A stretch of 13,899 bases of DNA. Origin: Saprospira sp. GTDB taxonomy: Bacteria; Bacteroidota; Bacteroidia; Chitinophagales; Saprospiraceae. Below, in pieces: positions 1 through 11,521 of this stretch (positions within the stretch are counted from its first letter, which is position 1; the number at the start of each line of letters is the position of its first letter). Where the stretch lies: contig JBIPOO010000093.1 in the NCBI GenBank assembly GCA_044379045.1, forward strand, positions 1 through 13,899, written 5' to 3'. The position numbers were made by a program, and so were the translations under genes. Under the pieces are notes generated by a model. That model was not told the DNA's origin. It ran no database searches and saw only the letters and a program-made list of their open reading frames with translations.

Positions 1-212
1 AATCCTCCGATTTCAACGGTAAAATTTACTGATATGCTTTGTTGAGATGAACTTGGCGCCGGCGACATTTTGAAAATCTTACCATTGATCAGTTCCACCA
101 TGCCGTCAAAGGTCCATTGCAGATAATCTGCATAGTTGTAGTTGCCAGCAATGTCCGGCTCTTCTACTTTCATCGACTTAACTTCATTTTTATATTCTTT
201 GGGTGTCTCCAT
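1..212 (-). CDS. Uma2-family (DUF820, PD-(D/E)xK-like) endonuclease. Only the N-terminal ~70 aa are present; the gene continues past the window start.
   Basis: The reverse strand reads from ATG at 212..210: METPKEYKNEVKSMKVEEPDIAGNYNYADYLQWTFDGMVELINGKIFKMSPAPSSSQQSISVNFTVEIGG. The Y-x-Y-A-D-Y-L ... ELI-x-G ... MSPAP-S ... pattern is the characteristic N-terminal signature of Uma2/DUF820 proteins. The ORF is open to the window edge. The ORF track missed it because it runs off the window. Confidence 0.6.
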   Translation of the reverse strand, partial: METPKEYKNEVKSMKVEEPDIAGNYNYADYLQWTFDGMVELINGKIFKMSPAPSSSQQSISVNFTVEIGG

Positions 213-325
213 ACTGCCAAATCATTTATTTATCTTTCAAATTTGCAAAAAGCGAATATACAGCATTTAATTCGTAAAATCAAGTCTATTTTCAACTTTT
301 CAGCACTTTTATTCCATTTGATATG

Positions 326-360
326 TATAAAAAAACACCGGATTTTATGAACCCGGTGTC
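326..360 (-). terminator. Intrinsic terminator of the MVP-like gene.
   Basis: Stem aacaccgg (335-341) pairs with ccggtgt (353-359) around an 11-nt loop. An A-run at 326-335 on the + strand gives a U-run after the hairpin on the - strand. It lies just 3' of the MVP stop at 382. Confidence 0.6.
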
Positions 361-381
361 TTTAAAAATATAGAAATAATG

Positions 382-2865
382 CTATTCTGCTTTCTCAGCT
401 GCATTTAGTCTCAGCACCTTTTCCAGCTGTGTTCCCTGTAATAAATTGGCAAAGACTTCGACAATGCTCTTTCCACCTATGATAGAGAGCGGCGCCATAG
501 TTTCGGCCATTTTTTCTGCAAGTGCTTTATCTCCAAAGGCTTGCAGTGCAGCAATCAGGTCAGGACTTACTGCCTCGGCCTTATTCACCACAGCATCAAC
601 CTGAGCCTGCAGTTCACGCAAACGCTGTTCCATGAGTTTTTCAGAAATCAACAGCTGTAGTTCCTGTGTTTCCTTATCTTTCGATAATTTCAGCCTGTTA
701 ATTTCGAGTTGTCGGCTCTGCTCGTCTAAAACCTTAGCCAATTGCTCCTGCTGTACCTTAAGTTCGGCATTCAATTTAGTAAGATTGAGCTCCAATTGCT
801 TTTCCTGTTCACTTTTTTCAAGTTCGATTCCGTATTTCTTGGTCAAGGACTTTGTCTCGGAAATTTCTCTGGAAATCTGTTCAGACTTTACTGTGTAAAC
901 CAAGTCCTTTTCTTTGCTCGTAAGATCCAGATTTTTACGAATTTCTTCATGTTTAGCCTCGAAGAGCAGATTTTGAATGTCCAGATTCTGAATTTCAATA
1001 TCCAACACTTCTACCTCATAAACATGCATGCCATTCTCGGGGAAAAGCCAGCCTAGACGGCCATTTTCGGCATCCTTTTTTGGACCAAGGATAATATCGC
1101 GCATGATACTGATTCCATTTGCATAAAATTCAGATACAGAATATTGTTTCAAAGCATTTCGAACAACAGAGCGCAAATGATCAGTCAGAAATTTTACATA
1201 GTTCTCAACATTGAACCACTTTTCGGGTTCACCCGTGAAATTTACCCGATAAGACATTTTTATATCGATGTTACAAAAGTCCTTAGTTTCGGCACTAACT
1301 ATATCCGACACCTTGTTGTTCAATGACCTCAAATACACAGTATTAAAGAGTTTGTTATCATTTTTTGGAGTTCCTGTAGATAACTCAATCGGCTGCAATA
1401 CTTCATCATATTCCAAAAGATATGTTGCCGGACCCACTACCACTTTTCGCTCCCCGGTTTTGCTTGTTACAAGCACAGCATAGCCTGTCCACACATCAAT
1501 CGTAACAGCACCTTCGTACTTATTATTCAGCGTAATGGTTCTAGGCTTTGTAAAACTGGTACTTCTCGAAAAGCTGCTGCCAACGATTCCCTCAAAAGCA
1601 TTTTCATCATTTTCTTTCAAATTGACATCCAATATAGCCGGACTTTGAGAAAGTTTCAAGCTTTCTTCCTTGCTGCGGGTTTCCTGCTGTCTTTCAGATA
1701 TTTCCTGAAGTTTTAAGTTGTATTGAACTGCCTCCTCGTTGCCTGGGAACCAAAGCCTTACCTGTTTTGGACTCAAAACCCTGCGCACGATAACTTCCTC
1801 GCGGGGGTCAGGCAGGAACATACTGGGGCCTTGTTTTAGTGCAATTTTACCACTATTTCTGTTAAGGTAATATCTTCCTTCGCCTGGAGGAATGGCCACC
1901 GCATAGTAAATATCCTGCTCGCCGTATTTTATCAAAGCATGCTCAGGGCGCGGAAAATAAATCATCTGTTCCTTGCCAGTGATAAAAAGCTCATCGCCAA
2001 CCTTGAATTGCTTACCATTTTCTTCGTAGGGTGCAATGATTTTTACATAAATACCGCTGTTTTCATTCAGTTCGATAGCTTTGAACTTGCGTGTTCCATT
2101 CTTTTCGACAAATTTCTCTGTTGGATTTGGGAAAACTACTGCCGGACCCTGAATATAACGTTTATTTCCATCTTCATCCAAAAGTATACAGTATTCCAGA
2201 CGCTCAAGCGTAACTGCCTTTCTGACATATTCAAGACTTTTTTCGTCCTTAACAACTTCAATACCGGTAGGCGGAATGTAAAATGAAACGTCTGTACCTT
2301 TTATGATGAGCAACTGCCCCATCGTGAGTTTACTTGCATCTATGGTATCGATATCCAGATTATTATTGTTGTCTTCAATCCCTTCGGGATTTGTCAATTG
2401 AGGAGTGATGACAGCATTTGCCCAATGCTCTCTTGCCTGTTGCTCCTCGTACACACGAACCGTCAGGTACTCATTCGAGCGCAGAAAGTGACCCTCAATC
2501 ACCTCAGCCATCTGACCGGGCCAGAGTGCAAAAAATGCTGGTCCGGGAAGATTTACCTTGCGTCCAATATTTAAAGACAACAATTGATTCGATGTGCCAA
2601 TTTGTGGCGGCTTTCCATCATTCGATGGATTTTTCAGAATGATGTACCAACCCTCGGGGCAGGCAATAAAGGTTTGAATGGATTTTTCTAAATCACAGAT
2701 TTCAAACATCTTTGATTTTTTGTTGAAATACACCGGCTTATCGGTGTTGGCCATACTGGTTTTGTAAGGTCCGACATAGGTAATTACATTACCCTTTGTC
2801 TGGTCTGATATAAAGGCAAACTCATTGGGAGCCAATACCAGATCGCGTTCTCTGTTTTCTGCCAT
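382..2865 (-). CDS. Major vault protein (MVP) homolog, 827 aa, with repeat domains, a shoulder domain, a cap-helix coiled coil and a cap ring.
   Basis: The N-terminus LVLAPNEFAFISDQTKGNVITYVGPYKTSMANTDKPVYF parallels the eukaryotic MVP start [38 protein letters not shown]. Repeat-domain motifs recur, for example KVGDELFITGKEQMIYFPRPEHAL versus the MVP AGDEWLFEGPGTYIPxKEVEVVE, and NENSGIYVKII versus NEGIYVQDVKTGK. The C-terminal third is a long E/Q/K/L-rich coiled coil, about aa 650-780 at coordinates ~528-918. It is followed by IAALQAFGDKALAEKMAETMAPLSIIGGKSIVEVFANLLQG, which mirrors the MVP cap-helix and cap-ring tail [44 protein letters not shown]. The size is close to eukaryotic MVP (~860-890 aa). 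Confidence 0.85.
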   Translation of the reverse strand: MAENRERDLVLAPNEFAFISDQTKGNVITYVGPYKTSMANTDKPVYFNKKSKMFEICDLEKSIQTFIACPEGWYIILKNPSNDGKPPQIGTSNQLLSLNIGRKVNLPGPAFFALWPGQMAEVIEGHFLRSNEYLTVRVYEEQQAREHWANAVITPQLTNPEGIEDNNNNLDIDTIDASKLTMGQLLIIKGTDVSFYIPPTGIEVVKDEKSLEYVRKAVTLERLEYCILLDEDGNKRYIQGPAVVFPNPTEKFVEKNGTRKFKAIELNENSGIYVKIIAPYEENGKQFKVGDELFITGKEQMIYFPRPEHALIKYGEQDIYYAVAIPPGEGRYYLNRNSGKIALKQGPSMFLPDPREEVIVRRVLSPKQVRLWFPGNEEAVQYNLKLQEISERQQETRSKEESLKLSQSPAILDVNLKENDENAFEGIVGSSFSRSTSFTKPRTITLNNKYEGAVTIDVWTGYAVLVTSKTGERKVVVGPATYLLEYDEVLQPIELSTGTPKNDNKLFNTVYLRSLNNKVSDIVSAETKDFCNIDIKMSYRVNFTGEPEKWFNVENYVKFLTDHLRSVVRNALKQYSVSEFYANGISIMRDIILGPKKDAENGRLGWLFPENGMHVYEVEVLDIEIQNLDIQNLLFEAKHEEIRKNLDLTSKEKDLVYTVKSEQISREISETKSLTKKYGIELEKSEQEKQLELNLTKLNAELKVQQEQLAKVLDEQSRQLEINRLKLSKDKETQELQLLISEKLMEQRLRELQAQVDAVVNKAEAVSPDLIAALQAFGDKALAEKMAETMAPLSIIGGKSIVEVFANLLQGTQLEKVLRLNAAEKAE

Positions 2866-3137
2866 GGTAAATTTATTAGTGGTGTAAAATACTTTGTTTG
2901 TTTTGTAAACTAAGTTAGTTCACTTCCTAAACTAAGCTGCCGCTTTTAAAGTTCCTCAAAATGCAATTTTTTTTGAATGCTATTTATAATAAAAACGTTC
3001 TTGGTCTACAGTTATATAGCATCTTTATTCAGGTCTGAAAGCTGCTGAATTTTAATTTCATTTTTCGTTTTAATGTCTAATAGCTATATTGCAGTCTGTT
3101 TAAAGCAATTTCAAAATCAAATGAAACCCTTATCTTG

Positions 3138-3920
3138 ATGAAAGTCCTGATTGTAATATTCTTTCTACTTCTATCTTTCAATTTATCTGCACAAATGCCC
3201 TACAGCGATGAGGTTCACCTCAAAAATGGGAGTGTTTTAAAATGTAAAATCATCGAATTTAAAACTGAAGAGAAAATAAAACTCGAAATTCAGGGTGGAA
3301 GCGTTTTGGTATACAATTCTTCTGAAATTGACAAAATTAACAGAGGAATAGGAGCGGAGCGCAAAGATGAAATTAGTAAAGGGCATTTCTATACTGATGA
3401 GTTGTATTTTGCAGCATTTTTTAACTTCATAGGTGGGTATAGAGAGGCTGCTTCCTGGTCTGGAGCTCAGGATATTCCTACACTTGGCTGTGGTCTGAAA
3501 TTCAGTGGAGGGAAGGCAATCAACAGGCATCTGATGCTAGGAGGGGGCATAGGCTGGTCCTACATGCACAATTATTTTATGTACTCGGCTCATTTTCCTG
3601 TTTTCGCCGAAATAAGAGGCGATATCCTAAAAAAATCTAATTCATTATACTATGCTTTTGGGCTAGGCTATAACATCGCTAAGCAAAGAAATGCGATGTC
3701 ATGGATAGGGACCACAATGATTGAGGCAAAGGGTGGAATTTATCTGAATCCAGCCATCGGTTTACGATTTGCTTCCAAAAGCAAAAAACATTTTTGTTTA
3801 GAGCTGAATTATGGTATTCACACTGCATCTTACAGCTATACAGGCACTAATGGCGAAATTATTGGGCCTACCAATAATGTTTTCATAAGACCAACCCTGG
3901 CTTTGGGAATGCTTTTTTAG
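3138..3920 (+). CDS. Hypothetical outer-membrane beta-barrel protein with a signal peptide.
   Basis: The ORF opens at TTG 3135 and the first ATG is at 3138. The N-terminus MKVLIVIFFLLLSFNLSAQ is a typical Bacteroidetes signal peptide. The Gly/aromatic-rich body has alternating-hydrophobic strands, and the protein ends in ...LALGMLF with a C-terminal Phe, as in OM beta-barrels. The N-terminal ~60 aa (VHLKNGSVLKCKIIEFKTEEKIKLEIQGG) look like a small separate plug or periplasmic domain. I recognise no specific family. Confidence 0.55.
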   Translation: MKVLIVIFFLLLSFNLSAQMPYSDEVHLKNGSVLKCKIIEFKTEEKIKLEIQGGSVLVYNSSEIDKINRGIGAERKDEISKGHFYTDELYFAAFFNFIGGYREAASWSGAQDIPTLGCGLKFSGGKAINRHLMLGGGIGWSYMHNYFMYSAHFPVFAEIRGDILKKSNSLYYAFGLGYNIAKQRNAMSWIGTTMIEAKGGIYLNPAIGLRFASKSKKHFCLELNYGIHTASYSYTGTNGEIIGPTNNVFIRPTLALGMLF

Positions 3921-3972: not shown

Positions 3973-3980
3973 TATCTTTG
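3973..3980 (+). promoter_or_regulatory. Bacteroidetes sigma-A -7 box (TATCTTTG) driving the SRP RNA.
   Basis: It matches TAnnTTTG. A TTG (-33-like, within tttaTTG) sits 19 nt upstream at 3951-3953. The predicted TSS at ~3985-3987 coincides with the 5' arm of the SRP RNA helix. Confidence 0.45.
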
Positions 3981-3983
3981 CAG

Positions 3984-4078
3984 CGGAGCCGCTGTACGTG
4001 CAGCTCCTGTGAACCTCCCCAGGTCGGAAACGAAGCAAGGATAAACGGTTGTAGCGCTCGGTACGGTTGGCTCCTTTT
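3984..4078 (+). ncRNA. ffs: Signal recognition particle RNA (small bacterial 4.5S type, ffs).
   Basis: CCCCAGGUCGGAAACGAAGCAAGGAUAAACGG matches the conserved domain-IV core of 4.5S RNA (CAGGUCCGGAAGGAAGCAGCCAAGGCAG). The 5' GGAGCC (3985-3990) pairs with the 3' GGCUCC (4069-4074), closing a ~95-nt hairpin-type molecule. It has a promoter box immediately upstream and a T-run with a terminator hairpin immediately downstream. No ORF covers the region. Confidence 0.75.
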
Positions 4079-5518: not shown

Positions 5519-5550
5519 GGGGGCTGCCATTTGGTTGCCCCTTTTTAAAT
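5519..5550 (+). terminator. Intrinsic terminator of gcdH.
   Basis: gggggctgcc atttggtt gcccc then ttttt, a GC stem GGGGC/GCCCC plus a T-run, 30 nt after the stop. Confidence 0.6.
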
Positions 5551-5667
5551 GAACTAGTGTAGTGATTTGTTAATTGGTAAACTTTTTATTTGGTCTGCTT
5601 TTTTTTCTTTCTTACTTTTTTCATGATAAAAAAGTAACAAAAAATCTAGTCCTCAGCAAGGCGTTTT

Positions 5668-5855
5668 TGGGTCTTAAGCCATAGTAATTCAATGGTTTAT
5701 TTGCAAGGAACCCAAAACCGGAAGCAGCATCTGTAACCTGAGTTTATTACTCCTCAACATTTATCCATAATTAAAACAATACCATTGCCAGCCGATGCTG
5801 CTTCCATACGCTGGTGCTTCGGACTTGTGACGCGGTGCCTTCGGCGCATTTTTCC
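5668..5855 (+). ncRNA. Candidate small structured RNA of unknown class: three hairpins with the last one acting as an intrinsic terminator.
   Basis: Hairpin 1 pairs gtttttgggt (~5671-5680) with acccaaaacc (~5711-5720) across a 30-nt loop. Hairpin 2 is a perfect 12-bp inverted repeat, ggaagcagcatc (5720-5731) and gatgctgcttcc (5794-5805), extended by ca/tg across a 3-nt bulge, with a 62-nt loop. Hairpin 3 pairs gtgcc (5835-5839) with ggcgc (5843-5847) and is followed by atttttcc. It sits in a 550-bp gap between convergent genes that contains no supported CDS. Confidence 0.3.
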
Positions 5856-6037
5856 AAAAGGCTATAGCCTTTGAGTGAAAAAATTGAAAATGTTTGCTTT
5901 TTATCGATTCCTTATACTGGCATTACTAATGATATAATTTCGCTTCGCGGAGCCTTTGGGTTCAATGAAAATACTTCATTCGCCTTGAGGAGTATTCGTG
6001 TACAAAGTTTTTATCAGTTGTGCTTGTGTACTTATAC

Positions 6038-7228
6038 CTATTCCATAAAAAGTTTATCATAAACTTTCAGAATCAGGTAGGCCTCGGCAGCACTTCGGTA
6101 ATATTTATACAGTTGTTTACTATCAGTTTTACTGATCCAGCTGTAGTGCATTTTACTGAGGTCCTGATTTTGTTTCAGATATTTCTTGATTGCCTCGAAA
6201 CTATCTGGTGGATTGTGGTGCATACATGCAGTTAGCCCTGCTATGAATATTCTAAGTATTCTACGCTTCTCGCTATTTGTATCAAAATCTGTAAAAAAGG
6301 CATTGAAATTTTTCAGTAGCCCCTCTGTTTTTAGAATATAGGAAAGTCTTTCCCAATTGCTATAAGCAAACAATACAGCAGCAAGTGCATGGTCTTCAAT
6401 AGTTTTCAGATCGGTTGTTTTTCCGAAAATTTTAAATTTATCTATCAAACGGCTGTTAACCTTTATGTCCTTTAGTGCTATATCGGTAAATTGAAATGGC
6501 CCAAGACTGTGTAAGCCGTCATACCTAGCAGGAAAATAGCAGATAAATTCATAACCTGCTTCCTGAAGCAATCTGTCGAAATAATAAACTTTGAAAATCG
6601 GATTTACATCAACAATCTGTCTCTTTGCAGTCATATGTGTTGGTGGCATCATTTCCTGAATATTATAACCAAGCAAAATATTGGCGGAGAGATTATCGGC
6701 GATTAGATTCATAAATGTAAGCCTTTCGGAACTGTAAAGCCGTTGCATTTCAGCGTGCAGTTTTCGCATCGTATCACAAGCCGGAACGAGCACTGTATTG
6801 CGGTAATTTCTGATATCGCTTTTTGTGGTTTTGTTGTTTCTGAAAAGTTCAATGGCTTCAATCGCAGTAATCATTGCAGATGCTTCAATTTTTCCGCTAT
6901 TGCTTTTTTGCGCATTCCGGGCTTTCGACATCCACATATCATAGATGCCTGCGGCAAAATCAATATTTCCTGTTTTTTTATAAATGCCCAAGGGCAGTGC
7001 AAGGCCTTCCATATCTTTTCTTGAAATGATTTCCCGGTCGACCAGGTCTTTAAGACTCATTTTCGAAAGTCTGCGACTGATATCCTCCTCTGCACTACTA
7101 TTGATAGCGTTGAGCATTTCATCATAGATAGGCGTAGACAGAAGACTGTCGCGTTCATTGCGCTGTGCAAATGAAAAAGAATTGAGGAATATGGTTAAAA
7201 AAAGGCTTATGAAAATTCGGTTTTGCAT
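6038..7228 (-). CDS. Hypothetical secreted protein, 397 aa from Met81 of the track ORF.
   Basis: The track ORF 6038..7468 would overlap the upstream dsbD-like gene by 180 nt. The in-frame ATG at 7228..7226 begins MQNRIFISLFLTIFLNSFSFAQ, a clean signal peptide, so I take it as the true start. I recognise no family. Confidence 0.55.
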   Translation of the reverse strand: MQNRIFISLFLTIFLNSFSFAQRNERDSLLSTPIYDEMLNAINSSAEEDISRRLSKMSLKDLVDREIISRKDMEGLALPLGIYKKTGNIDFAAGIYDMWMSKARNAQKSNSGKIEASAMITAIEAIELFRNNKTTKSDIRNYRNTVLVPACDTMRKLHAEMQRLYSSERLTFMNLIADNLSANILLGYNIQEMMPPTHMTAKRQIVDVNPIFKVYYFDRLLQEAGYEFICYFPARYDGLHSLGPFQFTDIALKDIKVNSRLIDKFKIFGKTTDLKTIEDHALAAVLFAYSNWERLSYILKTEGLLKNFNAFFTDFDTNSEKRRILRIFIAGLTACMHHNPPDSFEAIKKYLKQNQDLSKMHYSWISKTDSKQLYKYYRSAAEAYLILKVYDKLFME

Positions 7229-7240
7229 AATTGAGCATTT

Positions 7241-7275
7241 AAAAAAAAGATGCTGTTTTTCAGGCAGCATCTTTA
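7241..7275 (-). terminator. Intrinsic terminator of the DsbD-like gene.
   Basis: gatgctg (7249-7255) pairs with cagcatc (7265-7271) around a 9-nt loop. The preceding A8 run on the + strand (7241-7248) gives a U-run after the hairpin on the - strand. It lies between the dsbD stop (7288) and the downstream gene start (7228). Confidence 0.6.
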
Positions 7276-7287
7276 AAATATCAATAT

Positions 7288-9735
7288 TTATTTCTTTTCT
7301 TTTTTCCACTTTTCGTAATTGTCCAATCCGCACTGTAGAAAATCTCTGTAGGTTTTTACATCGGGGGTATTTCCGCGTGGGGCATTCAAAACTGTTTCGT
7401 CTGGCGCCATTAGTACATAAAGCGGTTGCGACTGTTGCGCAAAGTTGACCCTTTCGAAAGCAGCCCACTTGTTCCCTACATTTCTGATTTTGGTGCCATC
7501 CGGAGCAATTTCAACTTTTTCGAGTTTGGTACGGTCATCGACATACAAAGATATGAGTACAAAATCATTGTTCAGGTATTTATTGATCTCCTCTTTAACC
7601 CAGACATTGTCTTCCATCTTGCGGCAGTTTTCACAGCCATGTCCTGTAAAGTCAATCATGACTGGTTTGCCAACTGAACGTGCATAGGCCATACCTTTTT
7701 CATAGTCTTTGAAACACTGTTGAATACCGGCAGGACATTCGCATGGACAAAAATAAGAATAACAGGCTGGCGGTGCAATTCCGCTCATCAATGCAGGAGT
7801 GGCATAGGAATTTGTTTTGGCATTGGTCATAAAACCTGTGGCCAGATAAACAGACAAGGCAATGGACAAAATTCCCAATGTTCTGCGCGGAATACCAATT
7901 TTTGCTCCTTTGTCATCGTGCGGAAAGCGGATAAAACCCATTAGGTAAAGGCCCATTCCCAATGCGCACAGTACTGTTACAGCCAGGTAAGTTTCATATT
8001 TCAAAATTCCCCAATGCATGGTCAAATCTGCTTTCGATAAAAACTTAAACGCCAGTGCCAATTCTACAAAGCCCAATACCACTTTTACGGTATTCATCCA
8101 ACCGCCCGATTTTGGCAATGAATTGAGCCAGCCCGGGAAGGCCGAAAATAAACCAAAGGGCAACGCCAATGCTGTAGCAAATCCTAGCATACCAATGGCA
8201 GGAGCCAATCGTCCTCCTTCAGCTGCCTGTACCAGTAGGGTTCCGATAATTGGACCCGTACAGGAAAAAGAAACCAATGAGAGCGTAAATGCCATGAAAA
8301 ATATACCGATGATGCCACCACGATCGGCTGCACGGTCGGTATTATTCGACCAGGAAGATGGCAGTTTGATATCATAATATCCAAAGAAGGAAATTGCAAA
8401 GGCTACAAAGAGCACAAAGAACAGGGTATTGGGAATCCAGTGCGTTGATAACCAGTTGAGGGCATTGTCACCAAAAATGATGGTGATGGACATGCCCAAA
8501 AGTACATAAATTAGGATTATGGACAGAGAATAAATGGCAGCATTTTTCAATCCTTCGGCCCTCCCTTTACTTCGATGAGTAAAATAAGAAACCGTTAGCG
8601 GAACCATTGGAAAAACACAGGGTGTCATCAACGCAAATAGTCCGCCTAAAAATCCGAAAACAAAAATCATCCAAAGGCTCAGGTTGTTTTGCGGAACATC
8701 GGTGGCACAGTCGCCACTTTTCATGGCAATGGCAAGACTTTCCTTTATTTTTTTGCGTTCAATACCTTCCGCAACTTTTAAGTCGCTGTCTGTTTTTGTT
8801 TTTTCGAAAAAGCTAAATTCAATATTAGCAGGAGGCAGACATTTTTCTTTGTCGCATGCCATGAAATTTACAAAGCCTTTTACTGCCTGAGTAGTATCTT
8901 TGACTTTTATGATCTGCGTAAGTGTGTAATCCTTTTTGAATTTGATTACATTCATTTTGAAGGTCTTATCAATGCCTTCTGAACGGTTTGCGGCAGATGA
9001 ACTGCTCTCGACTACATCGCCTATAAATTCAACATTAGCATTTTTCTCAAGGTTCAAGGCAGTAGGAACAGGTCCTTTACCTTTTATATCTTTGCCATAA
9101 ATATGCCAGCCCTCATCGATTGTTGCGCTAAAAATAAGCTTATATTCATTTGTGCCTGTTTTTTCGGCACGATATTCCCATTTTACCGGCTCAGGCTTAT
9201 CGGTACCCTCTATTTTGTTTTCTTCGTCCTTTGGTTCATTTTTTTTTTCGTCTGACCCTTTTGCGGTTTTGCTTATTTTGGACAGATCGAATTTAAAATC
9301 AACATCAGTTGGCGGGAGGCACATCGTATTGTCGCAGGTCATATAGGTGACATAGCCTTTGACTGGAACTTTTAAATCTGTGCATTTTACACGCTGTACA
9401 ATCGTTACATCGTGTTTGTACTTGGTCAGCTGCATGTCGAAGGTTTCGTCCAGGCCAGTTTTTTTATACTCAGGTTTTGATGCTGATTCTGTGGCTTTGC
9501 CAACTAATGTAGGTTTCGACTCAAAGTTAATAGAAGTCGCTACAGGGCCATCTTCGCTTGGAAGATACTGTGAATATACATGCCATCCCGTTTTGATAGT
9601 TGCAGTAAACATCAGGTCATATTCATCGCCCTGTACATGTTTCGCCGAAAAAGTCCATTTGACTTCATCTTGTGCCTGTACTTTGCAAATGAAAATACCG
9701 AAGAGTAGTGTTGTTAAAAAGAGAATTTGCTTCAT
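7288..9735 (-). CDS. dsbD: Thiol:disulfide interchange protein, DsbD family (electron-transferring membrane disulfide reductase), with duplicated N-terminal alpha domains.
   Basis: The 815-aa product has the signal peptide MKQILFLTTLLFGIFICKVQAQ. Two tandem ~150-aa DsbD-alpha-like domains follow (KWTFSAKHVQGDEYDLMFTATIKTGWHVYSQ...MTCDNTMCLPP and KWEYRAEKTGTNEYKLIFSATIDEGWHIYGK...MACDKEKCLPP), each with a C-x4-C pair. A polytopic membrane core carries LMTPCVFPMVPL and SFSCTGPIIG, the two conserved Cys of DsbD-beta/CcdA. The C-terminal thioredoxin-like domain has CENC (FTGHGCENCRKM). Confidence 0.85.
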   Translation of the reverse strand: MKQILFLTTLLFGIFICKVQAQDEVKWTFSAKHVQGDEYDLMFTATIKTGWHVYSQYLPSEDGPVATSINFESKPTLVGKATESASKPEYKKTGLDETFDMQLTKYKHDVTIVQRVKCTDLKVPVKGYVTYMTCDNTMCLPPTDVDFKFDLSKISKTAKGSDEKKNEPKDEENKIEGTDKPEPVKWEYRAEKTGTNEYKLIFSATIDEGWHIYGKDIKGKGPVPTALNLEKNANVEFIGDVVESSSSAANRSEGIDKTFKMNVIKFKKDYTLTQIIKVKDTTQAVKGFVNFMACDKEKCLPPANIEFSFFEKTKTDSDLKVAEGIERKKIKESLAIAMKSGDCATDVPQNNLSLWMIFVFGFLGGLFALMTPCVFPMVPLTVSYFTHRSKGRAEGLKNAAIYSLSIILIYVLLGMSITIIFGDNALNWLSTHWIPNTLFFVLFVAFAISFFGYYDIKLPSSWSNNTDRAADRGGIIGIFFMAFTLSLVSFSCTGPIIGTLLVQAAEGGRLAPAIGMLGFATALALPFGLFSAFPGWLNSLPKSGGWMNTVKVVLGFVELALAFKFLSKADLTMHWGILKYETYLAVTVLCALGMGLYLMGFIRFPHDDKGAKIGIPRRTLGILSIALSVYLATGFMTNAKTNSYATPALMSGIAPPACYSYFCPCECPAGIQQCFKDYEKGMAYARSVGKPVMIDFTGHGCENCRKMEDNVWVKEEINKYLNNDFVLISLYVDDRTKLEKVEIAPDGTKIRNVGNKWAAFERVNFAQQSQPLYVLMAPDETVLNAPRGNTPDVKTYRDFLQCGLDNYEKWKKEKK

Positions 9736-10026: not shown

Positions 10027-10752
10027 TCACTTTTTCATACAGAGATTGTTAAAATCTTCTTCACTTCCCTTAAAAAAGTCTAAATCAACTTCCTTGTCAA
10101 TTCCATTGATTTTACCGTGAAATGAGTACTGTCTGAACCTCCATTGATGATCTTCAAGGTATGTTACTCTTTTATTTCGAGTAGAGCAGATCCAGATTTC
10201 ATTATCGAAATTGCCTTTGATATGATCAATATAATAATCGTAGGTTGTGTAGAAAATTGGCTTTACTCCATAATGCTGCTGCATCAGTTTTTCCAGTCTT
10301 TTTAATTTATCTGCAAGTTCTGCCTTACGCTCTGGAAGCTTCATTTCTTTGTTTTGGCAATATTCAAGGTCAATGACCGGAGGCAGATCTAAGAGTTCTT
10401 TTGGTGCGCTGGCAACAAAATTTGCAAATTGTCCATCCGCATCAGATGTCAGTTTAAAGTAATGATAGACTCCAATTTTAATCCCCTGTTTTTTTGCTTC
10501 TTTTGCATTATAACTGAAGCAGCTGTCCTGAAAAGTTGCACCCTCAGTAGATTTAATAAAGGCAAAGCGGACACCATCTTCCTTTACTTTTCCCCAATCA
10601 ATTTTTCCCTGATGATGTGACACATCAATACCTTTTATGCTATGAGGCTCCATCAAAGAAATGAAATTATTTGAAGGTAGCAATGAAATGCTGAAAATAG
10701 TGAGGCTGAGCGAGCTGAAAAGCACAATTGCCAGAATGATTATTTTTTTCAT
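10027..10752 (-). CDS. Glycoside hydrolase family 25 lysozyme (muramidase), secreted.
   Basis: From the internal ATG 10752..10750 the product is MKKIIILAIVLFSSLSLTIFS (signal peptide), followed by the GH25 signature GIDVSHHQGKIDWGKVKEDGVRFAFIKSTEGATFQD. The track ORF's 44-aa N-terminal extension has no signal and sits in the intergenic region. Confidence 0.8.
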   Translation of the reverse strand: MKKIIILAIVLFSSLSLTIFSISLLPSNNFISLMEPHSIKGIDVSHHQGKIDWGKVKEDGVRFAFIKSTEGATFQDSCFSYNAKEAKKQGIKIGVYHYFKLTSDADGQFANFVASAPKELLDLPPVIDLEYCQNKEMKLPERKAELADKLKRLEKLMQQHYGVKPIFYTTYDYYIDHIKGNFDNEIWICSTRNKRVTYLEDHQWRFRQYSFHGKINGIDKEVDLDFFKGSEEDFNNLCMKK

Positions 10753-10831
10753 AAAACTATTTTTTTTCTTGTGTACTAATGTGTTTTTTATTTGATAACG
10801 ATGCCTTTTGTGGCTTATTGTGTTTTTGAAT

Positions 10832-10854
10832 AAAGAAAAAAAGAGGCCTCTTTC
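10832..10854 (-). terminator. Intrinsic terminator between the 220-aa gene and the GH25 gene.
   Basis: A perfect 14-bp palindrome aaagaggcctcttt (10840-10853). An A-run on the + strand (10834-10842) gives a U7 run after the hairpin on the - strand. It lies 5-27 nt after the stop at 10859. Confidence 0.6.
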
Positions 10855-10858
10855 AGGG

Positions 10859-11521
10859 TTATCTCGCAAAAACAGTGATGTCATTCATCTTCCTATCGCT
10901 GGAATCTCCGCTACAGCTCGATTTAATATCGTAAAACTTAAAAACATCGCCGGGTTGGGCAGTACTTAACAGTTTTATTACATACTCGTCGAAATACTCA
11001 CCATTGTTTGTGTAAGGCCTACTGGGATCTGAAGATCCATTGGTTTTGATTACTGTAAATTTTTGAACCCTGCAGGGCGGCTTGTTGAAATTCGCGTTCG
11101 AAACAATGGTAATGAGTCTTCTTTCTGCAGCTAAAGAACCAGTTGTTACTTTTCCCTCTGATTTTCTGCTAAAGCCCAGTACTGTAAGCGCGTCGGCTAC
11201 TCTTTTTACAGGAAAATTATAGCTCTTAATGATTGCACCTGTTTTGTTGTTTTTCAATTGAATAGTGCATTCCTTATTGCTTGCATTTAGCTTTGTAAGC
11301 CTTACAATAAAACAATCCTTATCTTTCTTTATACTGCCTTCAGCGCCGATTATGGTGCCTTCTATGTCGGCCATATCCATTGTTGTAAAGTCATTTTTAA
11401 GGATATTATCGACTGCCAGTAATAAGAAATTAAATTCCGCATTTGGAATATGCCCCAGACTTTGCGCGAATAATGACATTGAAAAAAAAAATGCCATAAT
11501 TATACCTGTTATTTTTTTCAT
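10859..11521 (-). CDS. Hypothetical secreted protein, 220 aa, with a signal peptide and four Cys.
   Basis: MKKITGIIMAFFFSMSLFAQ is a signal peptide. The Cys sit at CFIV, ECTI, PPCRV and SSCSG, spaced as two possible disulfides. I recognise no family. Confidence 0.55.
   Translation of the reverse strand: MKKITGIIMAFFFSMSLFAQSLGHIPNAEFNFLLLAVDNILKNDFTTMDMADIEGTIIGAEGSIKKDKDCFIVRLTKLNASNKECTIQLKNNKTGAIIKSYNFPVKRVADALTVLGFSRKSEGKVTTGSLAAERRLITIVSNANFNKPPCRVQKFTVIKTNGSSDPSRPYTNNGEYFDEYVIKLLSTAQPGDVFKFYDIKSSCSGDSSDRKMNDITVFAR

What the first reader, a model, noticed from the sequence alone, without database searches (positions are those of the whole stretch)
382..2865. Full-length major vault protein (MVP) homolog in a bacterial genome
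The 827-aa product is collinear with eukaryotic MVP over its whole length. It has the N-terminal repeat domains, including the VGP-x-T start motif and GDE-hydrophobic ... P-x-x-x-EVV repeat motifs. It also has a shoulder region, a ~130-aa cap-helix coiled coil and a cap-ring tail. In eukaryotes 78 copies of MVP form the 13-MDa vault shell. To my knowledge no bacterial vault particle, cargo or function has been characterised, and homologs have only been noted computationally. A bacterial vault-like compartment would be a new class of prokaryotic protein organelle. It could also be a repurposed shell, for example in defence or storage.
Basis: partly seen in the sequence, partly recalled or inferred. 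Interest (0 to 1): 0.85.

Follow-up and report, generated by a model that had tools for sequence, protein, structure and literature searches.

The report
Bacterial major vault protein homolog (Saprospira)
This Saprospira gene really does encode a full-length relative of the eukaryotic vault-shell protein, but the same protein was already reported and is already annotated as such, and nobody has yet shown that it builds a particle.

Summary
Window 382-2865 (minus strand) is an intact 827-aa ORF, and it is a genuine major vault protein (MVP) homolog. A profile of 129 diverse homologs aligns residues 3-825 to human MVP 2-869 (probability 99.9%, E 7.5e-32). A confident AlphaFold model (mean pLDDT 84) finds only MVP chains as full-length structural matches; SPFH cage proteins match only the shoulder and helix.

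The gene is native to a Saprospira genome, stands alone with its own terminator, and has no membrane segment. It has no conserved neighbour in 80 genomes. No vault RNA or Y RNA was found near the gene in the window or six loci.

The family is large, with at least 766 clusters at 50% identity in many bacterial phyla and in huge phages.

It is not new. Saprospira grandis H6L4P8 was named as an MVP homolog in 2013 and 2019, and this exact sequence is labelled "major vault protein" by JGI/IMG.

No experimental bacterial vault was found in the literature searched. Self-assembly into a shorter vault-like cage is my best inference and is untested.

The parts
382..2865 (-). Complete coding sequence of the 827-aa bacterial MVP homolog (stop codon at 382-384)
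   Evidence: ORF list and translation. Of 6656 database homologs, the best 120 listed are 57-96% identical and nearly full length. hhalign to human MVP spans residues 3-825.
2722..2844 (-). Repeat b1 (aa 8-48), equivalent to human R1, the domain that forms the waist contact in eukaryotic vaults
   Evidence: Five strands in the model with pLDDT ~95. hhalign aligns bacterial 6-50 to human 5-48, E 1.7e-4. The S37-x-A-N-T-D-x-P44 loop is invariant in A1.
2494..2679 (-). Repeat b2 (aa 63-124), preceded by a 14-aa insertion (aa 49-62)
   Evidence: DSSP strands 63-124. FALWPGQ aligns to human R2 FPLYPGE in the N-terminal hhalign, E 4.7e-6 for the whole N-terminal alignment.
2245..2490 (-). Repeat b3 (aa 126-207), with an inserted helix (aa 141-150) and a variable loop (aa 156-180)
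   Evidence: DSSP. The loop has the lowest conservation, 0.19. hhalign gives only weak matches to human R3/R6.
2110..2226 (-). Repeat b4 (aa 214-252), equivalent to human R6 and the most conserved module
   Evidence: hhalign aligns bacterial 214-255 to human 270-319. Conservation 0.80.
1933..2088 (-). Repeat b5 (aa 260-311), equivalent to human R7
   Evidence: hhalign. The PDB profile search aligns positions 217-350 to human 275-409.
1786..1911 (-). Repeat b6 (aa 319-360), equivalent to human R8
   Evidence: hhalign aligns bacterial 320-353 to human 377-410, E 4.7e-4. DSSP.
1516..1770 (-). Insertion after b6: two helices (aa 366-405) and a poorly conserved, low-confidence linker (aa 406-450). 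It corresponds to the shorter linker inside human R8.
   Evidence: pLDDT below 50 for aa 407-435. Variable in alignments A1 and A2.
1375..1503 (-). Repeat b7 (aa 455-497), equivalent to human R9. The conserved S-x-G-x-P-K loop (aa 496-501) follows it.
   Evidence: Pfam Vault_3 E 2.1e-8. hhalign aligns bacterial 452-507 to human 456-512, E 1.2e-6. S496 and K501 are invariant in 129 sequences.
991..1362 (-). Shoulder (SPFH/Band-7-like) domain, aa 502-625
   Evidence: Pfam MVP_shoulder E 5.9e-29 and Band_7 E 5.8e-7. pLDDT ~95. Structural matches to SPFH cage proteins.
577..984 (-). Cap helix: one continuous 136-residue helix, aa 628-763
   Evidence: DSSP H628-763. Aligns to the human cap helix. 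It is the least conserved ordered part, 0.34.
385..561 (-). Cap-ring tail, aa 769-827: short helices modelled with low confidence
   Evidence: DSSP helices at 769-789, 793-796, 801-808 and 814-822, with block-mean pLDDT about 42-57. hhalign to human extends to residue 869. The SPDLIAALQAFGDKALAEKMA motif is conserved in A1.
324..363 (-). Intrinsic terminator just after the stop codon: a 14-bp hairpin followed by a run of T
   Evidence: RNA fold -17.5 kcal/mol, z -5.6, 0 of 200 shuffles fold as well. Sequence read.
2866..3134 (-). 269-bp upstream intergenic region, shared with a divergently transcribed gene (3135-3920, + strand). It presumably holds the promoter.
   Evidence: Sequence and ORF map. 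No sigma-70-like consensus lies within 2866-3134 itself; the only nearby match is at 3214-3243 on the + strand. Bacteroidota promoters are not covered by that scan.

Best explanation
**What it is (shown).** The gene encodes a true member of the MVP family, in the large bacterial clade typified by Saprospira grandis H6L4P8 and Microscilla marina A1ZGE7. The protein is soluble and cytoplasmic. From N- to C-terminus it has seven MVP-type beta-sandwich repeats, an SPFH-like shoulder, a 136-residue cap helix and a short cap-ring tail. It is transcribed on its own.

**How it most likely works (inferred).** As in eukaryotes, where MVP alone builds the shell, many copies would pack side by side. The repeats and shoulder would form a thin wall and the cap helices a closing dome. 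Two such half-shells would then pair through the N-terminal repeat. The result would be a hollow, vault-like cage, roughly two repeats per half shorter than the eukaryotic vault, that encloses or sequesters cytoplasmic material.

**Unknowns.** Copy number, cargo and physiological role are unknown. No partner or cargo gene is encoded nearby.

**My estimates.** Membership of the MVP family about 0.95. Assembly into a large homo-oligomeric cage about 0.7. A closed two-halves vault about 0.5.
For: **Membership**
- Pfam MVP_shoulder and Vault_3 match above their cut-offs.
- Only MVP chains are found in PDB by sequence.
- The full-length profile alignment to human MVP has E 7.5e-32.
- The AlphaFold model has mean pLDDT 84.4, with the repeats at about 95.
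- The 12 best Foldseek matches are all full-length vault chains (E 6.6e-33 to 1.2e-25), followed by the murine R1-R7 crystal structures (E ~1e-15).

**Seven repeats**
- The strand pattern of the model shows seven modules.
- The alignment offset to human falls from 56 at the R6 equivalent to 4 at the R9 equivalent.
- Each of the seven segments best matches a human MVP repeat.
- 252 aligned residues against R1-R7 is about five repeats.
- All 129 diverse homologs have every module, with occupancy about 1.0.

**Self-sufficient, soluble and native**
- A strong terminator follows the gene and the upstream neighbour is divergent.
- No protein family recurs next to the gene across 80 genomes beyond lineage-level synteny.
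- No 19-residue window reaches transmembrane hydrophobicity; the maximum is 1.3.
- Gene GC (0.417) and GC3 (0.418) fall within the range of the neighbouring genes.
- The window is 88-93% identical at the nucleotide level and syntenic with a Saprospira MAG contig.

**Constraint consistent with lateral packing**
- Identity is 57-60% across different phyla.
- The repeats are the most conserved parts, 0.56-0.80.
- The loop of b1 that aligns with the human waist-contact loop is invariant in A1 (waist residues from PMC12280208).

**Established knowledge.** MVP alone forms vault shells when expressed (Stephen et al. 2001, as cited in 10.1101/2023.11.10.566534). All solved proteins with an SPFH domain followed by a helix form large cages (PMC13100048).
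Against: - No particle has been seen. Nothing in the literature library reports a bacterial vault.
- Oligomerisation was not modelled here.
- The repeat count rests on the secondary-structure string, alignments and aligned lengths. I could not inspect the coordinates.
- The cap helix, which drives assembly in eukaryotes, is the least conserved ordered segment (0.34) and is about 20 residues shorter than in rat.
- The human waist-contact residues themselves are not conserved.
- Pfam repeat models other than Vault_3 do not match the N-terminal 450 residues.
- No TEP1/TROVE, PARP, vault RNA or Y RNA was seen near the gene, so a ribonucleoprotein like the eukaryotic vault is not supported.
Confidence: 0.6

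Rival explanations
1. It forms only a half-cage (dome) that sits on the cytoplasmic membrane, like HflK/C, QmcA, flotillin or stomatin. The repeats would act as a long skirt, and the complex would organise or enclose a membrane patch rather than being a free, closed vault.
For: - The shoulder matches Pfam Band_7 above its cut-off (30.2 vs 23.6 bits).
- Sokolskyi 2019 noted that this bacterial clade is closer to Band 7 than eukaryotic MVP is.
- Eukaryotic vaults were recently seen bound to membranes in situ (PMC13100048).
Against: - There is no transmembrane or strongly hydrophobic segment and no signal peptide.
- The N-terminus, which carries the anchor in SPFH proteins, is instead an MVP R1-like repeat with an invariant loop at the position of the human waist contact.
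- No NfeD, FtsH or other membrane partner is conserved nearby.
Confidence: 0.2
2. It does not build a cage. It acts as a monomer or small oligomer that binds nucleotides or other small molecules, as in the sequestration idea of Sokolskyi 2019, or as a scaffold.
For: - Human MVP has an NAD+/ADP pocket between adjacent shoulders (PMC12280208).
- The S-x-G-x-P-K 'keyhole' loop, including the lysine equivalent to human K506, is invariant in 129 bacterial homologs.
- RaptorX predicted GMP/CMP sites in the Saprospira protein.
Against: - Of the 13 human pocket residues, 12 could be mapped reliably and only K506 is conserved. R504, R507, P508, H509, R511, L517, F522, W545, P565 and K573 are replaced and D521 becomes N. 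R437 lies in a region that does not align reliably.
- The human pocket exists only between neighbouring subunits of an assembled shell.
- An extended protein more than 20 nm long, built of thin domains and conserved along its whole length, is hard to explain without lateral packing.
Confidence: 0.1
3. It is a mobile-element or phage-derived gene, for example part of an anti-phage or phage-encoded system, rather than a resident cellular structure.
For: - Full-length homologs (43-46% identity) occur in three huge uncultured phage genomes of 462 and 735 kb, next to phage genes.
- Gut phage MVPs have been reported (10.1101/2023.11.10.566534).
Against: - No PADLOC defence model matches and there are no plasmid copies.
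- The neighbours are housekeeping genes: SRP RNA, acyl-CoA dehydrogenase and DsbD.
- Composition equals that of the neighbours, and synteny holds within Saprospira.
- The neighbour-joining tree groups sequences largely by taxon (Saprospiraceae, Myxococcota, Riflebacteria and Sericytochromatia each form one clade; Bacteroidota fall into two).
Confidence: 0.05
4. It is a recent transfer from a eukaryote, or eukaryotic contamination of the assembly.
For: Daly et al. 2013 raised transfer from eukaryotes as one possible origin of bacterial homologs.
Against: - Identity to human MVP is only about 16-23%.
- The gene has no introns and has a bacterial terminator.
- It sits in a bacterial gene neighbourhood.
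- At least 766 clusters at 50% identity reach E <= 1e-30 against the bacterial profile. Human MVP would score about 1e-21 at that library size (my extrapolation).
- In the tree, human MVP sits on a very long branch outside all the bacterial sequences.
Confidence: 0.02

Closest known systems
Eukaryotic major vault protein (rat, human and rabbit MVP; PDB 4V60, 9BW5, 9Z4W)
   Same: - Same order of parts: MVP beta repeats, SPFH-like shoulder, one very long cap helix and a cap-ring tail.
- Collinear over residues 3-825 (E 7.5e-32).
- The only full-length structural matches are MVP chains.
- No membrane anchor.
- The S-x-G-x-P-K loop before the shoulder is conserved.
   Different: - Only about 16-23% identical.
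- Seven repeats instead of nine; one repeat stands where human R4-R6 are.
- Extra insertions at aa 49-62, 141-180 and 366-450.
- The cap helix is about 20 residues shorter.
- The NAD+ pocket and waist residues are not conserved.
- No TEP1, PARP4 or vault RNA was seen nearby.
- Assembly has never been demonstrated.
Previously reported bacterial MVP homologs (Saprospira grandis H6L4P8, Microscilla marina A1ZGE7, Flexibacter litoralis I4AHY9, Corallococcus, Plesiocystis, Herpetosiphon; Daly 2013, Sokolskyi 2019)
   Same: - This is the same family and the same genus. The window protein is 97% identical to that of a MAG assigned to the S. grandis species cluster and 58% identical to the Microscilla protein.
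- It shows the same Band-7 signal.
- It has the same association with gliding, filamentous or predatory lineages.
   Different: Nothing essential. New here:
- the seven-repeat count;
- the size of the family (at least 766 clusters at 50% identity);
- further phyla (Riflebacteria, Sericytochromatia, Vulcanimicrobiota, Chloroflexota, Desulfobacterota);
- the lack of any conserved neighbour;
- copies in huge phages.
SPFH / Band 7 cage proteins (HflK/C, QmcA, stomatin, prohibitin, flotillin, erlin)
   Different: SPFH proteins have an N-terminal membrane anchor and no MVP repeats, and they form half-cages on membranes. This protein has about 500 residues of MVP repeats in place of the anchor.
Cyanobacterial (Oscillatoriales) MVP-like proteins
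   Same: They are bacterial, full-length MVP homologs.
   Different: They are reported to be more than 50% identical to eukaryotic MVP and to group with eukaryotes. The Saprospira protein belongs to the separate, much larger clade found in chemotrophic bacteria.
Encapsulins and bacterial microcompartments
   Same: If it assembles, it would likewise be a self-assembling protein shell in a bacterial cytoplasm.
   Different: No sequence or fold relationship: no HK97-fold or BMC-domain match in Pfam or in the structure searches. There is no adjacent cargo gene or targeting-peptide partner, and the expected geometry is a barrel rather than an icosahedron.

Membership tests
Major vault protein (MVP) | MVP shoulder domain (Pfam PF11978) | tested here: met
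   E 5.9e-29, 100.9 bits against a cut-off of 25, aa 516-626. All 10 homologs tested also match.
Major vault protein (MVP) | N-terminal MVP-type beta-repeat fold | tested here: met
Major vault protein (MVP) | Nine repeat domains (R1-R9), as in all solved vaults | tested here: not met
Major vault protein (MVP) | Long cap helix followed by a cap-ring tail, collinear with the rest of the protein | tested here: met
   A single helix spans aa 628-763. hhalign runs through the human cap helix and cap ring to residue 869.
Major vault protein (MVP) | Self-assembly into a hollow barrel of two half-shells (39 + 39 copies in mammals) | not testable with these tools
   No multimer prediction or experiment was available. 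No published bacterial particle was found.
Vault ribonucleoprotein (complete particle) | Association with TEP1 (TROVE), a vault PARP and vault RNA | tested here: inconclusive
   No recurrent neighbour family within about 10 kb in 80 genomes. No vault RNA or Y RNA in the window or in six loci. Whole genomes could not be searched.
Vault (human) NAD+/ADP-binding shell | Basic pocket residues R504, K506, R507, P508, H509, R511, L517, D521, F522, W545, P565, K573 (and R437) | tested here: not met
   Only K506 (bacterial K501) is conserved, and D521 becomes N517. The others are replaced. R437 lies in a region that does not align reliably (alignment; residue list from PMC12280208).
SPFH / Band 7 membrane cage proteins | SPFH domain | tested here: met
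SPFH / Band 7 membrane cage proteins | N-terminal membrane anchor (transmembrane helix, hairpin or lipidation site) directly before the SPFH domain | tested here: not met
   The maximum 19-residue hydropathy is 1.3, and it lies in the C-terminal tail. About 500 residues of MVP repeats precede the SPFH-like domain.
Known anti-phage defence systems (PADLOC) | Match to a defence-system protein model | tested here: not met
   No PADLOC model matches at E <= 0.01.

The most novel reading that the evidence does not exclude
Saprospira and hundreds of other bacterial lineages, mostly gliding, filamentous or predatory, together with some huge phages, build a genuine closed vault-like protein cage from this single gene. 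The cage would be a seven-repeat, shorter version of the eukaryotic vault. That would be a widespread, uncharacterised class of bacterial protein compartment. It would also be the likely prokaryotic root of the eukaryotic vault, and it would offer a simple system in which to find out what vaults are for.
Probability: 0.45. Interest if true: 0.8.

Novelty: already known. Interest (0 to 1): 0.4.

Why it matters
The function of vaults has been unresolved since their discovery. Recent vault papers still treat the particle as eukaryotic and do not mention bacterial homologs (PMC13100048; PMC9778704 abstract).

A bacterial MVP that assembles would give a minimal system: one gene, with no PARP4, TEP1 or vault RNA in sight. 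That system could be used to study assembly, cargo and function. It would add a new kind of protein compartment to bacterial cell biology. It would also bear on where the eukaryotic vault came from.

As a finding, however, the existence of this homolog in Saprospira has been published and is in public annotation. The value lies in doing the experiment, not in the detection.

Tried and rejected
1. **First AlphaFold run.** Using 62 close homologs (57-93% identity) gave a poor model, mean pLDDT 57.7 with the N-terminal half below 50. It was replaced by a run on a diverse 129-sequence alignment.
2. **Pfam repeat models.** At E up to 5, no Pfam family other than Vault_3, MVP_shoulder and Band_7 gives a meaningful match in 10 family members; in particular no repeat model matches the N-terminal 450 residues. 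Internal repeats are barely detectable by profile self-comparison.
3. **Single-sequence and shallow-profile comparisons.** Against human MVP these covered only the C-terminal 60%. The N-terminal part alone was insignificant with the shallow profile.
4. **Conserved partner or cargo gene.** All-against-all clustering of ORFs from 80 loci found only overlapping spurious ORFs, generic histidine kinases and lineage-level synteny such as LepA.
5. **Vault RNA or Y RNA nearby.** None was found. Only an SRP RNA, tRNAs and RNase P RNA appeared.
6. **Defence-system membership.** No PADLOC match. NCBIfam has no model for the family.
7. **Plasmid copies.** None.
8. **Conservation of the human NAD+ pocket.** Not conserved, apart from one lysine.
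9. **AlphaFold database fold search.** The library was not available.
10. **Regulatory repeats upstream of the gene.** Only short two-copy matches that are likely chance.
11. **Link to Saprospira rhapidosomes.** Already dismissed by Sokolskyi 2019. I found nothing to revive it.
Full report
**1. The observation.** The window contains an 827-codon ORF on the minus strand at 382..2865, with an ATG start and the stop codon included. Its N-terminus coincides with the consensus start of its homologs. An ORF of this length in DNA of about 40% GC is far beyond chance, and it has thousands of database relatives.

**2. Identity by sequence.**
- Pfam finds the MVP shoulder domain (E 5.9e-29), the Vault_3 repeat (E 2.1e-8) and a weaker SPFH/Band 7 match over the same region.
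- Among all PDB sequences, only MVP chains are matched. The single sequence gives E 6e-11 and a profile of 62 homologs gives E 2.4e-25. A second, collinear stretch aligns residues 217-350 to human 275-409.
- To compare full lengths I used the human MVP sequence, which I verified as 100% identical to PDB 11dr_A.
- With a shallow profile the alignment covered bacterial 218-806 against human 274-843 (E 8.6e-18).
- With a profile of 129 mutually diverse homologs it covered bacterial 3-825 against human 2-869, with probability 99.9, E 7.5e-32 and 723 aligned columns.
- The protein is therefore collinear with MVP from the first repeat to the cap ring.

**3. Identity by predicted structure.**
- A first AlphaFold run on close homologs failed for the N-terminal half.
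- A second run on the diverse alignment gave mean pLDDT 84.4 and pTM 0.64, with the repeat region at about 95.
- By Foldseek against the PDB, the 12 best matches are all full-length rabbit, human and rat vault chains (E 6.6e-33 to 1.2e-25). Next come the murine R1-R7 crystal structures (E ~1e-15). Only then come SPFH cage proteins (flotillin, prohibitin, QmcA, stomatin, HflK/C, erlin; E 5e-7 and weaker), which cover only the shoulder and helix.

**4. Anatomy, and the one real difference.** The strand pattern of the model defines seven beta modules:

| Module | Residues | Note |
|---|---|---|
| b1 | 8-48 | equivalent to human R1 |
| b2 | 63-124 | preceded by a 14-aa insertion |
| b3 | 126-207 | inserted helix and a variable loop |
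| b4 | 214-252 | equivalent to human R6 |
| b5 | 260-311 | equivalent to human R7 |
| b6 | 319-360 | equivalent to human R8; followed by two helices (366-405) and a low-confidence linker to about 450 |
| b7 | 455-497 | equivalent to human R9 |

- After the repeats come the shoulder (502-625), one 136-residue helix (628-763) and a helical tail (769-822).
- In the alignment to human MVP, b1 pairs with R1 and b4-b7 pair with R6-R9. The stretch between b1 and b4 holds two modules where the human protein has four. The offset is 56 residues at b4 and falls to 4 at b7 because of the long insertion after b6.
- Each bacterial module on its own best matches one of the human repeats.
- The 252 residues superposed on R1-R7 correspond to about five repeats.
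- I therefore count seven repeats, not nine. The caveat is that I could not inspect the coordinates.
- All 129 diverse homologs possess every module, so this is the architecture of the bacterial clade.
- I did not find this repeat difference stated in the papers I read.

**5. Genomic setting.**
- The window is 88-93% identical at the nucleotide level, and syntenic over almost its whole length, with a contig of a MAG assigned to the Saprospira grandis species cluster. The MVP proteins are 97% identical.
- Gene GC and third-position GC fall within the range of the neighbouring genes.
- The gene is followed at once by a strong hairpin-plus-T terminator (-17.5 kcal/mol, z -5.6). Its upstream neighbour is transcribed divergently, so the gene is monocistronic.
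- The neighbours are ordinary: an SRP RNA, an acyl-CoA dehydrogenase, DsbD, a GH25 lysozyme, a universal stress protein and a methyltransferase.
- Clustering all ORFs from 80 genome loci with up to 10 kb of flank on each side found no family that travels with MVP beyond lineage-level synteny.
- No vault RNA or Y RNA is nearby.
- No defence model matches, and no plasmid carries the gene.
- The protein has no membrane segment.

**6. The family.**
- The word-indexed search returned 6656 homologs. The best 120 are 57-96% identical and nearly full length.
- The exhaustive search of 50%-identity representatives found 1662 clusters at E <= 1e-3 and 766 at E <= 1e-30.
- Carriers include Saprospiraceae, Cytophagales, Microscillaceae, Bacteroidales, Myxococcota, Desulfobacterota, Riflebacteria, Sericytochromatia, Chloroflexota (Caldilinea), Vulcanimicrobiota and others.
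- A neighbour-joining tree groups the sequences largely by taxon: Saprospiraceae, Myxococcota, Riflebacteria and Sericytochromatia each form one clade, while Bacteroidota fall into two. Human MVP sits on a very long branch. This fits long residence in these lineages rather than frequent recent transfer, although deep branches are unresolved and no support values were computed.
- The repeats are the most conserved parts (0.56-0.80) and the cap helix the least conserved ordered part (0.34).

**7. How it most likely works.**
- Shown: the protein has the complete MVP building plan in a soluble form and is encoded alone.
- Established knowledge: eukaryotic MVP alone assembles into vault shells, and every solved protein with an SPFH domain plus a long helix forms a large closed dome.
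- Inference: this protein packs laterally into a dome with a repeat-built wall. Because b1 aligns with R1 and carries an invariant loop at the position of the human waist contact, two halves probably pair into a closed barrel that is shorter than the eukaryotic vault.
- Conservation of 57-60% identity across phyla along the whole thin wall is what lateral packing would impose.
- Rivals are a membrane-bound half-cage, a non-assembling nucleotide binder, a mobile or phage function, and a eukaryotic origin. They are weighed in their own section. The membrane half-cage is the only serious one.
- The human NAD+ pocket is not conserved, except for one invariant lysine in a conserved S-x-G-x-P-K loop. 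I therefore do not claim nucleotide binding.

**8. Comparison with what is known, and novelty.**
- Daly et al. 2013 list Saprospira grandis H6L4P8, Microscilla marina A1ZGE7 and others as bacterial MVP homologs that fold and dock like MVP in silico. They note that the Saprospira protein was already provisionally annotated as MVP.
- Sokolskyi 2019 analysed the same Saprospira protein, its Band 7 signal and the link with gliding bacteria.
- A 2023 preprint added gut-phage MVPs.
- The exact window sequence is in public collections and is named 'major vault protein' by JGI/IMG, while NCBI calls relatives hypothetical and NCBIfam has no model.
- No paper in the library reports an experimentally observed bacterial vault. 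Recent vault papers do not mention bacterial homologs.
- The finding is therefore real but already known as an in-silico observation.
- What this analysis adds:
  - the seven-repeat architecture;
  - the size and phyletic breadth of the family;
  - the absence of any conserved partner;
  - copies in huge phages.

**9. Verdict.**
- Novelty: already known.
- Interest 0.4. A vault specialist would not be surprised that the homolog exists. Whether bacteria build vaults remains open, important and cheaply testable.

Noticed in passing
L081 (LR756501.1 11212-25605, reverse complement), ORF 5998-8427; also LR756500.1 and LR756503.1: Three huge uncultured phage genomes (462 kb and 735 kb) encode full-length MVP homologs, 43-46% identical to the window protein (MVP_shoulder E 1.2e-28, Vault_3 E 4.9e-11). 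In the 735-kb genome the gene lies among phage genes, including a phage metallopeptidase and a weak match to a prohead core protease. I found no paper that mentions MVP in huge phages.
   Followed up: partly
window 3979-4077 (+): A small SRP RNA (Rfam Bacteroidales_small_SRP, 50.6 bits, E 8.5e-8, just below the gathering score of 55.2) lies between the divergent neighbour of MVP and the acyl-CoA dehydrogenase gene.
   Followed up: no
window 3-212 (-): The start of a gene that runs off the window edge weakly matches the Uma2 putative restriction endonuclease family (E 7.4e-4, 19.5 bits, below the cut-off of 27). It lies just downstream of the MVP terminator.
   Followed up: partly
window 6038-7468 (-): A 476-aa ORF with no Pfam or PADLOC match. 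With its GTG start it would overlap the 3' end of the DsbD gene by 181 bases. An internal start at MQNRIFISLFLTIFLNSFSFAQ, which looks like a signal peptide, seems more likely. Function unknown.
   Followed up: no
window 5545-6038 and 10129-10850: These two stretches have no nucleotide match in the otherwise syntenic, 88-93% identical Saprospira contig L001. The second covers most of the GH25 lysozyme gene (10027-10884), so that gene appears replaced or highly divergent between strains.
   Followed up: no
window 10859-11521 (-): A 220-aa protein with a signal-peptide-like N-terminus matches only the C-terminal domain of the gliding/T9SS protein GldM (GldM_4th, E 7.4e-8). Its gene overlaps the start of the GH25 lysozyme gene.
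   Followed up: no
window 7288-9735 (-): The DsbD-like thiol:disulfide interchange protein is 815 aa long and carries two copies of the DsbD_N domain before the membrane domain.
   Followed up: no
L044, L051, L053, L057 (with L047 on a longer branch): In the tree, MVP genes from MAGs labelled Synergistia and Vulcanimicrobiota are almost identical, with a Bacillota-labelled MAG (L047) as their nearest relative. They also share the flanking genes for LepA and a radical-SAM-like protein. This suggests mislabelled bins or a very recent transfer.
   Followed up: partly
L043, L050, L066, L074, L078 (Myxococcota), 0-2 kb downstream of MVP: Three small proteins of about 130-260 aa on the opposite strand recur downstream of MVP in five myxobacterial loci. 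This may be only lineage synteny. In this high-GC DNA many overlapping ORFs are spurious.
   Followed up: no
window protein aa 496-501 (window 1363-1380, - strand): The loop S-T-G-T-P-K aligns with the human MVP 'keyhole loop' (S-A-G-R-P-K), which contacts NAD+/ADP. S496 and K501 are invariant in 129 diverse bacterial homologs, although the rest of the human pocket is not conserved.
   Followed up: partly
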